The notes under the pieces are model-generated. The model had not been told where the DNA came from, ran no database searches, and worked only from the letters and a program-made list of their open reading frames with translations. Positions 23,870 through 50,629 of a stretch of DNA of 64,000 bases are shown here, in pieces; positions within the stretch are counted from its first letter, which is position 1, and every line of letters begins with the position of its first letter. Location of the stretch: positions 6,882,001-6,946,000 of the forward strand of contig OZ024761.1 in NCBI GenBank assembly GCA_964016885.1, given 5' to 3'. Made by a program: the position numbers and the translations under genes. Origin of the DNA: Eledone cirrhosa. Taxonomy: Eukaryota.

Positions 23870-24128
23870 CGAGCCCGGTGCTTATCCTAGTTTCTGTGAC
23901 ATGAAGCAACTGAGAGTACACAACTTCCCCCTGGAGAGGACACCAGTCCATTGTAAGGTTAAACCCCTAGCTTCTGTAGCTGGTACTCATTTTCAGCTGA
24001 GTATATTGGAGCAATGTGAAATGAAGTGTTTTGCTCAAGAACACAACACACAACCCAGTTCAGGAATCGAACCCACAACATTAGGATCATAAGTCCAACA
24101 CCTTTACCACTAGGCTACATGCTTCCCA
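23870..24128 (-). mobile_element. tRNA-derived SINE family B variant
   Basis: On minus: A box (TAGCCTAGTGG) and B box (GGTTCGATTCC), then ttcttgagcaaaacacttcatttcacattgctcc, which is shared with the copy at 24421. Confidence 0.75.
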
Positions 24129-45096: not shown

Positions 45097-45433
45097 TCAT
45101 CATCATCATCATTTTACGTCCACTTTTCCCTGCTTGCAAGGGTGGGACAGGAACTGATTCTGGCTTGATTTCTACAGCTGGATGCCCTTCCTAACACCAA
45201 CCTCATTTACAGTGAGTGCTGGGTGCTTTTTTTCCGTGGCGCCTACATGTCCACTTTACAGTGGAATGATAGGGACCCCAGTCCTATCATCTCATTTCTA
45301 CAGCTGAGTAAACTGAAGCAATGTGAAAATAAAGTGTCTTGCTCAAGGAAACAGCACATCACCCGGTCTGAGAATTGAACTCACAACTTTTAAATTGCAA
45401 GCCCAATGCTCTAACCACTAAGCCATGTGCCTT
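45097..45433 (-). mobile_element. SINE family B with RTE tail ending in (GAT)n
   Basis: Homologous to the 24421 and 27180 copies. Confidence 0.85.
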
Positions 45434-45529: not shown

Positions 45530-47233
45530 GTCAGCAAGGTTAGAATTAACAACGAATATAGTGTTTAGCGTAAAAGTTGGTGTTCATCAGGGATCCGTTC
45601 TTAGCCCCCTACTATTTATTATTGCCCTTCAGGCTATAGCAGAGGAGTTCAAGACCGGCTGCCCATGGGAACTCCTATATGCAGATGATCTAACGCTCAT
45701 AGCTGAATCAATGGCTGAACTAGAGAAGAAATTCCAAACATGGAAGCATGGCCTAGAATCAAAAGGCCTTAAAATTAATCTGTCTAAGACTAAAGTTCTA
45801 GTTTGTAGGAAGGAAAATAGGGCACCGGTCCCATCTGGGAAATGGCCATGCTCAGTGTGTAGGAAAGGAGTCGGCAGAAACTCCATTTTATGTCAAAAAT
45901 GCAAAGTATGGGTGCATAAAAGATGTAGTGGGATCACAGGTAAGCTAACTAAGAATATAGATTTTATATGAGGCCGGTGCTCAGGTGCAATAAGTAGCAG
46001 CAAGTGCCCACAGAATACTAGCTCATTCCATTGCACACATGTTTCTATAGAAATAGTGGACACCTTTCGTTACCTGGGTGACAAAATCAGCAGTGGTGGA
46101 GGGTGCTCTGAAAGTACAGTAGCTAGAGTCAGAACGGGATGGAAAAAGTTCAGAGAGCTTATACCACTATTGGCCGCTAAAGTGAGACTTGGGCATTAAG
46201 TGCAGAGGATATACGCCGACCCCAGTCGGCGTATATCCTCTGCACACAATGCCCAAGTCTCACTGCCATGTAACATTGCTGTTCGTATGCAGGCATCATA
46301 CAGCCTGCCTTTCATTTTTAGGGAGAACCCTTTAGCGGCCAATAGTGGTATAAGCTCTCTGAACTTTTTCCATCCCGTTCTGACTCTAGCTACTGTACTT
46401 TCAGAGCACCCTCCACCACTGCTGATTTTGTCACCCAGGTAACGGAAGGTGTCCACTATTTCTATAGAAACATGTGTGCAATGGAATGAGCTAGTATTCT
46501 GTATATATATATATAGGAACGAAGCTTGCATGCTCCACTGGATGTGTAATAGTAATATACGTGAACGGCAAAGCAGAAATGAACTAAGGGAGAAATTAGG
46601 AATAAGAGGGATCAGATGTTGTTTACTCGAGAGAAGACTACGTTGGTACGGTCACGTGATGCGCATGAAAGACGACAGCTGTATATAAAAGTGCAGGGCG
46701 ATAAAAATAGACGGTAGCCACGGAGTAGGCAGACCCAGAAAAACCTGGGACGACTTGATAAATTCCGACCTCACACACTTACACCTCTCCAAGACAATGT
46801 CACTGAACCGAGATCTTTGGCGCTACACAGTAATACAGAAGACCCGCCTTGCCTAAGTACAAAGCGAAACCTACAGTCAGTAGGCACCTCTAACAAAAAT
46901 ACACCCCTGTCCCACTACCCCCACCGCCATCTTTCGATGTAAAGCTATATTGGTACCACAACATCCAGTCTTAAATAAATGAGGTCGTGTAGGTGTCACG
47001 ACAAAAAAAAAAACACACAGTCCACGCTGTAATGTGGCCGTGTAGGTAACATGGTAAAAATCTCCCAGTCCACACTGTAAACGTGGTTGGTGTTAGGAAG
47101 GGCATCCAGCCGTAGAAAACCCGCCAGACAGTCCTATACGAGCAAGTCAACCAGTCTTGCCTCAAGTGGGAAAATTCCCGTCCAAACCCATGCAAGCGTG
47201 GAAGATGGACATTAACCGATGATGATGATGATG
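45530..47233 (+). mobile_element. RTE LINE 3' portion with an internal inverted duplication
   Basis: [28 protein letters not shown], (GAT)n tail. 46222-46501 is inverted. Confidence 0.9.
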
Positions 47234-47290: not shown

Positions 47291-48836
47291 ATCATCATCA
47301 TCATCATCACCGTTTTACGTCCGTTCTTCCACGCTAGCATGGGTTAGACGGGTTGTCCTGTTGTGGGCAGTGTCTGGTCGGCTGACCATGCCTTGCTCAT
47401 ACAGGAACTGATCTGGCTTGATTTCTACAGCTGGATGCCCTTCCTAACACCAACCTCATTTACAGTGAGTGCTGGGTGCTTTTTCGTGGCGCCTACACGT
47501 CCACTTTACAGTGTGGGCTGGGTGCTTTTTTGCCGTGGGGCACCTCCACTACAACCTTGCGGTGGGGGGAGCGGGGGCATATTGTTTATATGCTTCAGCA
47601 TGTACCCATGGGAGGTCGGGTACCCTGTATTACTGCGTGACGCCAGAAGTCACGGTCGTGTGTCATTGACTTTGAGAGGTGTAGTTGGGTAAGGTCGGCT
47701 TTTATCACCTCATCCCAAGTCATCTTGGGTCTCCCCACTCCGCGGTTTCCATCAACTTCTAGTGCTCTGCACCTTTTTATGCAGCTGTCATCCTTCATAC
47801 GCATCACATGTCCATACCAGCGTAACCGCCTCTCCTGCACGCAGCATTTGATTCCTCTTATGCTCAGTCTCTCTCTCAATTCCTTTATGCTTTGTCGTTC
47901 ACGTATATTACTTTTACACATCCATCGGAGCATGCAGGCTTCGTTTCTCTCTAATCTACGTAAGTCTTCCACCTTCAGCGCCCAGGTCTCACTACCATGC
48001 AACATCGCTGTTCGGATACACGCATCATACAGTCTGCCTTTCATTCTGAGGGAGAAGCCTTTTGCAGCTAGCAGTGGTAGTAGTTCCCTAAACTTCTTCC
48101 ATCCCGTTCTTACCCTAGTTATTGTACTTTCTGAGCACCCACCTCCGTTGCTAATTCGGTCACCTAGGTAGCAGAAGCTGTCTACTGTTTCTACAGGGCC
48201 CTCCCAGAGATTGGTGGTACTTGTTTCCTGTGGCTGTTTGCTTGCTGTTTCAGCACAGCTGCTGCATGTGAATCCTACATTCTTAATTAAGCTTCCTGAG
48301 ATCCTGCTACATCTCTTGTGTACCCATTGTTTGCATTTGGGGCAGAGAATGGAGTTCCTACCTACACCTTTCCTACATACTGAGCAAGGCCATTTCCCTG
48401 AGGGGATCTGGGTTCTGTTTTCTCGTCTACTTATAAGGACCTTAGTCTTTGTCATGTTGACTTTGAGGCCCTTTCTCTCTAGTCCCTGCTTCCAGGTTTG
48501 GAATTTATTCTCTAGTTCTACCATAGATTCAGCTATGAGTGCGAGGTCATCAGCATACAGGAGTTCCCATGGGCATCCGGTCTTAAACTCCTCCGTTATT
48601 GCCTGCAGGACTATGATGAACAGGAGAGGGCTAAGAACAGAGCCCTGGTGGACCCCAACCTGTACGCTAAATTCCTCGCTATACTCATTGCCAATCCTAA
48701 CTTTGCTGACTGCTCCCCTATACATGGCTTGTACCGCTTTCACAAGCCATTCATCTACTCCTAGTTTTCTAAGAGCCCACCAGATTACTGCACGTGGAAC
48801 TCTGTCAAAGGCTTTCTCAAGGTCGACAAATGCCAA
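47291..48836 (-). mobile_element. 5'-truncated RTE LINE, open RT C-terminal portion
   Basis: LAFVDLEKAFDRVPR...YADD...RRLRWYGH open to 47595. (CAT)n tail. Flanked by (TA)n. Confidence 0.93.
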
Positions 48837-48839
48837 TAT

Positions 48840-48874
<35 letters not shown>

Positions 48875-48916
48875 AATATATATATATGTAATTTATATAT
48901 ATATATATATATATAT

Positions 48917-50049
48917 TATAAGTATGTACACGTCCATACATATATGTATACAGACGTACAGTAGTATGTATATATAAATACATACATGCACACGGCATAC
49001 GTCAAGACGGGCGGTCAGGAAAGTGAAAGTAATTTTTGACACTGAATTTTTTTTTTTTTTTTTTTACAACAGGTCTCAATAGTGAAAGTTACGATACACA
49101 GGCAATTGTATGGATTTCTTAATATATATATGTGTGTGGGTGTGTATATGTGTGTCTGTATGTATATATATATATGTGTGTTTGTATATATATATATGTG
49201 TTTGTGTCATCATCATCGTTTAACGTCTATCTTCCACGCAAGCATGGGTTTCTGACCCAAATCCCTTATCATTCTGTCCTTCTTATGACTCGACCTTAAT
49301 TTCTTTGGGGACAGAGAGTTGGTGCAAACAAGTTTGCCTAGATGTACAAACACATATATACACACAAACATATATATACGTCTAAACCCATGCTTGCGTG
49401 GAAGATAGACGTTAAACGATGATGATGACACAAACACATATATATATACAAACACACATATATATATACATACAGACACACATATATATACACACCCACA
49501 CATATATATATATATTAAGAAATCCATACAATTGCCTGTGTATCATAACTTTCACTATTGAGACCTGTTGTAAAAAAATAAAAAATTCAGTGTCAAAAAT
49601 TACTTTCACTTTCCTGACCGCCCGTCTTGACGTATGCCCATGCACACATATATACATGCACCTATGGATTCACCGAACATTTATTATAATGCTCGGTGTG
49701 TTTGTAAACAAACATCCCGTATTAAGCCGTAGTGTCTAGCAACCATCGTTGCTCGTTTGTTCAACACTGACAAAGGAACGCTGTACGGCAGGAAGGTATA
49801 CGTTGCTGACGATAGCTAATAAGCTTGAAACTGGTACAGCGTTCCTTTGTCAGTGTTGAACAAACGAGCAACGATGGTTGCTAGACACTACGGCTTAATA
49901 CGGGATGCTTGTTTACAAACACACCGAGCATTATAATAAATGTTCGGTGAATCCATACGTGCATGTATATATGTGTGCATGTATGTATATATATATACAT
50001 ACTACTGTACATCTGTATAAATATATGTATGTACGTGTACATACTTATA
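48917..50049. repeat. Nested three-stem inverted repeat
   Basis: Arms 48917-48993/49973-50049, 48994-49251/49384-49638 and 49639-49786/49834-49981. Confidence 0.9.
49800..49842 (+). ncRNA. Minimal type I hammerhead ribozyme motif
   Basis: acgttg CTGACGA t agct-aata-agct t GAAAC tg GTA cagcgt. Possible distal stem I extension agga/tcct. Confidence 0.65.
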
Positions 50050-50629
50050 TTTAAGTAACAGCCGTACTAAGAGTGGGAAATGAAATTTCGTTTCATTTTT
50101 TCCGTTTATATATATATTAAGAAAATTTTGCTCTATATAATTATATATATATAAATTATATATATAAATTATATATATAATTACATAGAGCAAAATTTTC
50201 TTTATATATATATATACTACTCTTATTTAATGTTCACAGAACTCTGAACAATGTAAAGGGAGATAACTAAGTTAGGGCTATATTTTATCAGACGCTCCAC
50301 AGAGTCGGCACCGGAAGTTGGATGATAATTGCGCAGACGCTGTGATGCCAATGCTTTAAGGGAGCGGTTTGTATGTAAACAGGTGGAGGGAGAAAGGAAG
50401 AGTTTAAAAACTCTTGCACATAAGCGACTTGCTCTTCACGGATGTTTATATTCACAACTTTCAAATCACGAACAGGCTAACAGATTTAACAACTAATGTG
50501 TGTATATGTATATGTGTATACATATACATAATCACACGTATATGTATATATATGACAAACCACTAAGTTTCTGTGATTTCTAGAAAGGAATTTTACTTAA
50601 ATGAAGGTAAAAAAAAAAGAACCGGGAAA

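What the first reader, a model, noticed from the sequence alone, without database searches (positions are those of the whole stretch)
48917..50049. 1.1-kb Y-shaped nested fold-back with a hammerhead ribozyme in one loop
Seen: an outer ~77-bp stem closes two adjacent hairpins (~255-bp stem with ~130-nt loop; ~148-bp stem with 47-nt loop), joined through a shared CATGCACAC microhomology. The 47-nt loop holds a hammerhead core (CTGACGA...GAAAC..GTA), and the inverted arm begins at the GUA cleavage triplet (49834-49836). A few arm mismatches argue against a read artefact. Known: PLE pLTRs and retrozymes carry such hammerheads, and PLEs create inverted ends. Inference: a non-autonomous ribozyme-bearing element whose cleaved RNA or cDNA end primes serial fold-back synthesis that captures flanking DNA, including an RTE tail. 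If transcribed it would give a branched dsRNA in which the long stem competes with ribozyme folding.
Basis: partly seen in the sequence, partly recalled or inferred. Interest (0 to 1): 0.72.

Follow-up and report, generated by a model that had tools for sequence, protein, structure and literature searches.

The report
Transposon nested in hammerhead retrozyme copy
The Y-shaped fold-back is two common jumping elements stacked by chance: a small Merlin-type DNA transposon landed inside one mirror-image arm of a copy of a very abundant repeat that carries a predicted self-cutting RNA and was likely pasted in by a Penelope-type enzyme, so this site is ordinary.

Summary
The three stems and the hammerhead motif are real, but they are not one element. 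48994-49638 is a 645-bp Merlin-family MITE. It has GG-ended TIRs shared with transposase-coding copies, CATGCACAC is its 9-bp target duplication, and the RTE-like tail is part of its lineage. Without it, the locus is one insertion of a 422-bp type I hammerhead repeat (non-LTR retrozyme; 23,735 exact motif matches with its relatives). An inverted arm sits back to back with a forward arm in (TA)n, and the real right end is 50109. In 43 of 44 inverted copies with two standard ends, one end is short and the other about 60 nt longer, the Penelope tail footprint. Breakpoints do not cluster at GUA: 113 of 118 arm passes read through it, and a control position truncates as often. Snap-back copying from the long arm does not fit 21 of 36 inverted copies. 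The scan has already noted this footprint for hammerhead repeats elsewhere in this genome. Verdict: new member of known kinds, low interest.

The parts
48836..48916 (.). (TA)n run, left target flank of the retrozyme insertion
   Evidence: family copies end in (TA)n
48917..48993 (-). Inverted retrozyme arm, outer piece (monomer positions about 215 down to 137); carries the short 'A' end
48985..48993 (+). 9-bp target-site duplication CATGCACAC, left copy
   Evidence: L031: exact 9-bp match, no 8- or 10-bp match
48994..49638 (.). 645-bp Merlin-family MITE (fold-back), inserted later into the inverted arm
48994..49251 (+). MITE left inverted repeat, starting GGCATACG; its inner 49208-49251 is an RTE-3'-tail-like piece
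   Evidence: RTE label recalled; the piece matches the 3' ends of RT-bearing copies in the window at 78-88%
49252..49383 (.). MITE loop; Merlin subterminal sequence that lies upstream of the transposase in L343
   Evidence: MITE 258-645 matches one end of L343 at 88%
49384..49638 (-). MITE right inverted repeat
49639..49647 (+). 9-bp target-site duplication, right copy
49639..49786 (-). Inverted retrozyme arm, inner piece (monomer 145 down through 1 to 420); its 5' truncation falls at the GTA triplet and it holds none of the ribozyme core
49787..50109 (+). Forward retrozyme arm (monomer 373 to 275), 5'-truncated, 0.77 monomer, ending at the long 'B' end before (AT)n
   Evidence: 98% to the family consensus
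49800..49842 (+). Type I hammerhead motif. Stem I 49800-49805/49837-49842, core CTGACGA, 4-bp stem II, GAAA, 2-bp stem III ACTGGT (family ACTAGT); predicted cut 49836/49837
50050..50109 (+). About 60-nt 'tail', present on this arm only
   Evidence: PMC8557442 Fig. 2 legend; PMC11167929

Best explanation
The locus is two nested mobile elements: a back-to-back insertion of a 422-bp hammerhead repeat (a non-LTR retrozyme) in a (TA)n run, likely made by a Penelope-type reverse transcriptase/endonuclease, and a 645-bp Merlin MITE that sits inside its left arm between 9-bp target duplications. Shown: the nesting, the duplication, both families, the two fixed 3' ends about 60 nt apart, the scattered 5' ends, and variants shared by the two arms. 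Inferred: the Penelope enzyme nicked both strands of the TA run; each 3' end primed cDNA on the same template RNA or the same source's RNA (uncleaved multimer or circle), one at site A and one at site B; both cDNAs stopped early and were joined at their 5'-truncated ends, often through 1-4 nt of microhomology. The Merlin transposase later cut and pasted the MITE into the left arm, which split one stem into an outer and an inner part and made the Y. The hammerhead is predicted to cut well only as a dimer through its palindromic stem III; it likely serves the family's RNA cycle and did not shape this locus.
For: MITE: 791 first-look candidates, 40 scored. An exact 9-bp TSD in 16 of 26 distinct loci, 9 of them in informative sequence, and no exact 8- or 10-bp TSD. 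The same terminal 12-mer stands at both ends around a DDE_Tnp_IS1595 match in 8 of 30 loci, with 8-9-bp TSDs; L343 matches MITE 258-645 at 88%. Merlin is defined by GG-ended TIRs of 24-462 bp and 8- or 9-bp TSDs (PMC8101967, passages). With the MITE removed, the left arm is continuous and shares two derived bases (125G, 129G) with the right arm. Retrozyme: tandem 422-bp units; 1,481 exact long ends running into TA; intact core in 91 of 113 hammerhead copies, palindrome ACTAGT in 87; a U-G to G-U double change in stem I of older relatives. PLE footprint: short+long ends in 43 of 44 inverted copies with two standard ends, out of 78 junctions; RT+GIY-YIG elements of this genome show the same layout with a 60-65-nt tail (L322); PMC8557442 describes it, and PMC11167929 shows both-strand priming at two internal sites. 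One source per insertion: 37 of 78 derived bases are shared between arms within an insertion (47%) against 8.6% between insertions. Arm lengths are uncorrelated (rho -0.03, n=36).
Against: No autonomous PLE with sequence homology to the monomer was found. Among 40 GIY-YIG loci (of 150 scored, 10,596 candidates) the monomer's relatives occur only as separate insertions in 2 loci. Eight PLE ORFs hit 7 of 260 family loci, none shown to be one element with the monomer. About half of the position-picked copies (roughly 50 of 96) show no inverted arm, and 34 of 78 junctions have a non-standard end. Ten of 26 MITE loci lack an exact 9-bp TSD. Rfam does not score the hammerhead, and the covariation rests on one pair in 5 distinct sequences, with 56 of 500 shuffles as high. 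Cleavage, expression and raw-read support were not obtained.
Confidence: 0.88

Rival explanations
1. One reading: the ribozyme-cleaved RNA or cDNA end primes serial fold-back synthesis, which builds all three stems and captures flanking DNA.
For: The window's inverted arm stops at the GTA triplet. 17 and 13 true truncations were caught at positions 420 and 1, against 4 at control position 8. A weak excess over the whole hammerhead: 18 observed against 12.3 expected, P 0.075. One perfect fold-back at GTAC exists (L227). In 15 of 36 inverted copies, and in the window, the inverted arm would fit inside the forward arm.
Against: Control position 15 gave 19 truncations among 30 of 35 matches inspected, as many as at GUA. 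In 96 position-picked loci, 5 ends fall at 418-5 against 3.0 expected (P 0.19), and 113 of 118 passes read through. In 21 of 36 copies the inverted arm is too long to be a copy of the forward arm. The middle hairpin is a dispersed Merlin MITE with its own TSD. The window's arm ends 3 nt beyond what a cleaved RNA could template.
Confidence: 0.04
2. The nesting is as described, but the inverted retrozyme pair arose at the DNA level (template switch during repair or replication, or two separate insertions in one TA run), not in a single Penelope-type event.
For: (TA)n runs attract repeated insertions (L321, L322). Junction microhomology of 1-4 nt in 20 of 36 copies also fits repair.
Against: Separate insertions would not share derived bases (47% against 8.6%). 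Neither route explains the strict short+long pairing (43 of 44).
Confidence: 0.06
3. Assembly or read artefact (chimeric fold-back).
For: Raw reads were not examined for this locus; palindromic chimeras occur in long reads (general knowledge).
Against: Arm mismatches, an exact TSD, standard MITE ends, standard A and B ends, and dozens of like structures at unrelated loci.
Confidence: 0.02

Closest known systems
Metazoan non-LTR retrozymes (Cervera and de la Pena 2020, PMC7229834, passages read; Li, Clavereau and Pollet, bioRxiv 10.64898/2026.07.22.740005, part 1 of 5 and passages read)
   Same: Non-coding tandem unit with one type I hammerhead per unit, low GC, thousands of copies, PLEs present in the same genome.
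   Different: The unit is 422 bp (170-400 nt RNAs, 150-450 bp repeats in the paper). The window copy is under one monomer per arm and has a single hammerhead, so it does not meet the preprint's 'active' definition. The passages I saw do not describe inverted two-ended insertions. Expression and circles were not tested.
Penelope-like element insertions (Craig et al. 2021, PMC8557442, passages; Frangieh et al. 2024, PMC11167929, parts 1-2 of 4; Cervera and de la Pena 2014, PMC4209133, part 1 of 4)
   Same: 5'-truncated inverted copy next to a forward copy, a tail on one end only, (TA)n or AT-rich targets, two internal RT start sites, hammerhead with a short palindromic helix III. In Frangieh et al. 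cleavage is not needed for insertion.
   Different: No ORF. The tail is about 60 nt rather than 30-40 (local autonomous PLEs have 60-65 nt). The partner PLE was not identified by homology.
Merlin/IS1016 DNA transposons, non-autonomous form (PMC8101967, passages)
   Same: GG-ended TIRs, 9-bp TSD, ends shared with DDE_Tnp_IS1595-coding elements of this genome.
   Different: The 258-bp inverted repeat appears to be a mirror duplication of one end of the parent, including an RTE-tail-like piece; the parent's other end matches only about 50-160 bp.

Membership tests
Non-LTR retrozyme | Type I hammerhead core and three helices in each unit | tested here: met
   Core intact in 91 of 113 copies; stems I and II paired in 96% of cells; no Rfam hit
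Non-LTR retrozyme | Tandem units of 150-450 bp, low GC, no protein | tested here: met
   422-bp tandem units. No ORF of 90 aa or more over 49787-50109
Non-LTR retrozyme | Two or more consecutive units with a complete hammerhead (active element) | tested here: not met
   Not met for the window copy (one hammerhead); met by other family copies (L020, L026, L027)
Non-LTR retrozyme | Self-cleavage; linear and circular RNA | not testable with these tools
   Needs in vitro cleavage and RNA data
PLE-type insertion | Inverted 5'-truncated copy next to a forward copy | tested here: met
   36 simple cases among 96 position-picked loci; the window
PLE-type insertion | Tail extension at one end only | tested here: met
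   43 short+long, 1 short+short, 0 long+long, 34 with a non-standard end, of 78 junctions
PLE-type insertion | Microsatellite or AT-rich target | tested here: met
   1,481 long ends into TA (this pattern required TA). Short ends also lie in (TA)n
PLE (autonomous) | RT plus GIY-YIG ORF | tested here: not met
   None in the element. Such ORFs exist elsewhere in the genome
PLE-derived retrozyme | Homology to the pLTR of an autonomous PLE | tested here: inconclusive
   None found in 40 GIY-YIG loci out of 10,596 candidates
Merlin MITE | TIRs of 24-462 bp ending 5'-GG | tested here: met
   GGCATACG...CGTATGCC, 258 bp
Merlin MITE | 8- or 9-bp TSD | tested here: met
   Exact 9 bp in 16 of 26 distinct loci, the window included
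Merlin MITE | Ends shared with a DDE_Tnp_IS1595 transposase element | tested here: met
   8 of 30 PF12762 loci carry the terminal 12-mer at both ends; L343 matches at 88% over 388 bp
Mutator/MULE fold-back (considered for the 9-bp TSD; features recalled) | Ends shared with a MULE transposase element | not tested
   Not searched, because the Merlin link was direct

The most novel reading that the evidence does not exclude
This family records a strict two-start rule: one Penelope RT/endonuclease dimer primes both strands of a cut TA run on one ribozyme RNA, possibly a circle, at two fixed sites 60 nt apart, always one site per strand, and reads through the hammerhead without cleavage. This would be genomic proof that animal retrozymes are mobilised by PLE enzymes, and a minimal 422-nt substrate for reconstituting two-ended PLE integration.
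Probability: 0.45. Interest if true: 0.55.

Novelty: new member of a known kind. Interest (0 to 1): 0.22.

Why it matters
The Y shape itself is a chance nesting and matters mainly as a warning: a 9-bp 'microhomology' at both sides of a hairpin is a TSD. The family data have some value. Retrozyme dependence on PLEs has been argued from co-occurrence and pLTR homology (preprint 10.64898/2026.07.22.740005), and the PLE tail was tied to two RT starts in vitro (PMC11167929). A near-invariant short+long pairing, independent arm lengths, one template source per insertion and no role for the cleavage site give testable limits on PLE integration. I found no paper on this footprint in retrozymes or on such repeats in cephalopods (searches; the taxon terms were my guess; subscription journals are not covered). 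The scan itself has noted the same footprint several times in this genome.

Tried and rejected
Rfam scans: no hammerhead family hit, only hairpin-driven miRNA hits below gathering score. A DNA search with the 70-nt right end found nothing, as the tool skips common words, so a pattern was used. An apparent cluster of ends at 414-1 in the first 30 loci was rejected: the query selected for it and one case was an edge effect of the reference length. A first control (position 8, 4 hits) suggested a hotspot; a second (position 15, 19 of 30 inspected) removed it. RNA-editing signature in arms: A>G is confounded by subfamily sites 47 and 203, and private changes show no A>G excess. Autonomous partner not found; family PF26215 is not in the library. 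Look-ups of earlier findings by sequence were empty. Circle versus homogeneous multimer template cannot be told apart: copies within an insertion agree at diagnostic sites (23 of 26, 43 of 44, 40 of 43, 30 of 32, 65 of 79; expected fractions 0.50-0.85), which both predict. Dropped before counts: 4 of 100 loci without a usable chain (L145, L185, L190, L199), L205 unused, L207 left out of the inverted set, 4 duplicate MITE loci. Supplements were not opened; those of the preprint (closed) may list invertebrate retrozyme families.

Full report
Observation. The three stems are present as described: 77 bp with 4 mismatches, 264 columns with 3 mismatches and gaps in simple repeats around a 132-nt loop, and 148 bp with 2 mismatches around a 47-nt loop. 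The loop and the start of the right arm form a type I hammerhead motif at 49800-49842. Rfam does not score it. The window lies in a 3.0-Gb genome, contig C22.

The middle hairpin is a separate element. A search with 48994-49120 gave 791 candidates, 40 scored, many as inward-facing pairs. Among 30 fetched loci (26 distinct), 16 have an exact 9-bp duplication at the GGCATACG...CGTATGCC ends: 9 in informative sequence (the window included) and 7 in TA runs. None has an exact 8- or 10-bp duplication, and 10 lack an exact 9-mer. A search for DDE_Tnp_IS1595 gave 150 scored matches. In 8 of 30 fetched loci the same terminal 12-mer stands at both ends, with 8-9-bp duplications, and one end of L343 matches MITE 258-645 at 88%. 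This meets the Merlin definition in PMC8101967 (passages read). The RTE-like tail occurs twice, with the loop, in 18 of 30 MITE loci, and also at one end of transposase-coding copies, so it was not captured at this site. The RTE label is recalled, not tested.

The rest is one insertion of a hammerhead repeat. A search with 49655-49845 gave a family of 422-bp tandem units. Numbering the unit from the predicted cut, the window reads: (TA)n, an inverted arm from about 216 down through 1 to 420, split by the MITE at 137-145, then a forward arm from 373 to 275 that ends at 50109, then (AT)n. BLAST reports the short end as 219 because of the TA run; the sequence puts it near 216. With the MITE removed, the left arm is continuous and shares two derived bases with the right arm. 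The hammerhead motif has 23,735 exact matches, relatives with longer units included. The long end has 1,481 exact matches running into TA. The core is intact in 91 of 113 copies and stem III is the palindrome ACTAGT in 87; the window has ACTGGT, which still self-pairs (-3.2 against -4.8 kcal/mol). This is the architecture that PMC4209133 (part 1 read) describes as needing a dimer. Older relatives show one double change in stem I (weak, 56 of 500 shuffles as high).

Breakpoints. I took the first 100 long ends on contig C1 by position; 96 could be mapped. Over 136 arms and 135 ends, 5 fell at 418-5 against 3.0 expected (P 0.19), 18 in the whole hammerhead against 12.3 (P 0.075), and 113 of 118 passes read through the cut site. 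Genome-wide patterns caught 17 truncations at 420 (of 25 matches), 13 at 1 (of 20), 4 at control 8 (of 4) and 19 at control 15 (of 30 inspected out of 35). There is no reliable hotspot; several junctions at 420 use a GTA or GTACAG microhomology. Of 36 simple inverted copies, 21 have an inverted arm too long to be a copy of the forward arm, arm lengths are uncorrelated (rho -0.03), and 20 junctions overlap by 1-4 nt. Serial fold-back from a cleaved end is not the family's route.

What made the inversion. In loci not chosen by the long end, 78 inverted junctions were found: 43 short+long, 1 short+short, 0 long+long, and 34 with a non-standard end. The two arms of an insertion share 37 of 78 derived bases (47%) against 8.6% between insertions; tandem copies within an arm share 29% against 6%. 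PMC8557442 (passages) describes PLE insertions with an inverted 5'-truncated copy, a tail at one end and (TA)n bias. PMC11167929 (parts 1-2 of 4) shows a PLE protein cutting and extending both strands, starting at two internal sites that bound the tail, without need for hammerhead cleavage. RT+GIY-YIG elements of this genome have the same two-end layout with a 60-65-nt tail (L311, L322). I infer priming from both strands on one template source by a PLE enzyme. The specific partner was not found, and circle versus multimer is undecided.

Comparison and novelty. The repeat is a new member of the metazoan non-LTR retrozymes (PMC7229834, passages; preprint 10.64898/2026.07.22.740005, part 1 and passages); the window copy is a truncated one with a single hammerhead. 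The insert is a Merlin MITE. The searches showed no paper on this footprint in retrozymes. Earlier notes of this scan report it for 310-, 430-450- and 500-nt hammerhead units in this genome; these are unchecked AI notes, looked up after my reading was formed, and whether any is this family is not known (empty). Raw-read support, expression and cleavage remain untested.

Verdict. Observation confirmed, interpretation partly supported. The Y shape is a chance nesting of two known kinds of element. Interest 0.22; new member of a known kind.

Noticed in passing
L099-L211 paired arms: At paired sites the short-end arm carries more private substitutions than the long-end arm (80 against 41), although overall rates are close (3.1% against 2.7%). 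Unexplained; may come from selecting on the long end.
   Followed up: partly
L311, L316, L320, L322 (e.g. L322:6158 +); L292-L330: Two autonomous PLE families carry minimal hammerheads with a U3-A8 core and the palindromic stem III ACCGGT, and two alternative ends in (TA)n.
   Followed up: partly
L243/L244: Both arms of one insertion carry the same 19-nt insert exactly at the predicted cut site; L239 and L240 lack the A of the triplet. Possibly a cleavage-ligation scar, but a control position shows similar numbers of indels.
   Followed up: partly
L027:1814-1860 (monomer 311-354): The unit holds an octamer-like ATGCAAAT and a splice-donor-like AAG/GTAAGT upstream of the hammerhead (motif names recalled); a possible internal promoter or intron as in Penelope pLTRs.
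   Followed up: no
L321:7989-9231; L322:2198-2772: Older relatives of the unit (79-86% identity, longer monomers) sit in TA runs next to PLE copies.
   Followed up: partly
L343:467-2357; L333; L335; L359: Near-complete Merlin elements with open frames of up to about 340 aa and asymmetric ends. The MITE looks like a mirror duplication of their long end. Some loci show a short TIR fragment repeated inside (L039, L044), and L043 is a related 505-bp MITE.
   Followed up: partly
window 47595-48835 (-): 5'-truncated RT-like open frame (YADD motif, RTE-like by recall) that abuts the same TA run; a similar fragment at 45531-45971 (+).
   Followed up: no
window 24060-24117 and 45368-45425 (-): Two tRNA-like hits just above the Rfam gathering score, probably SINE heads.
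   Followed up: no
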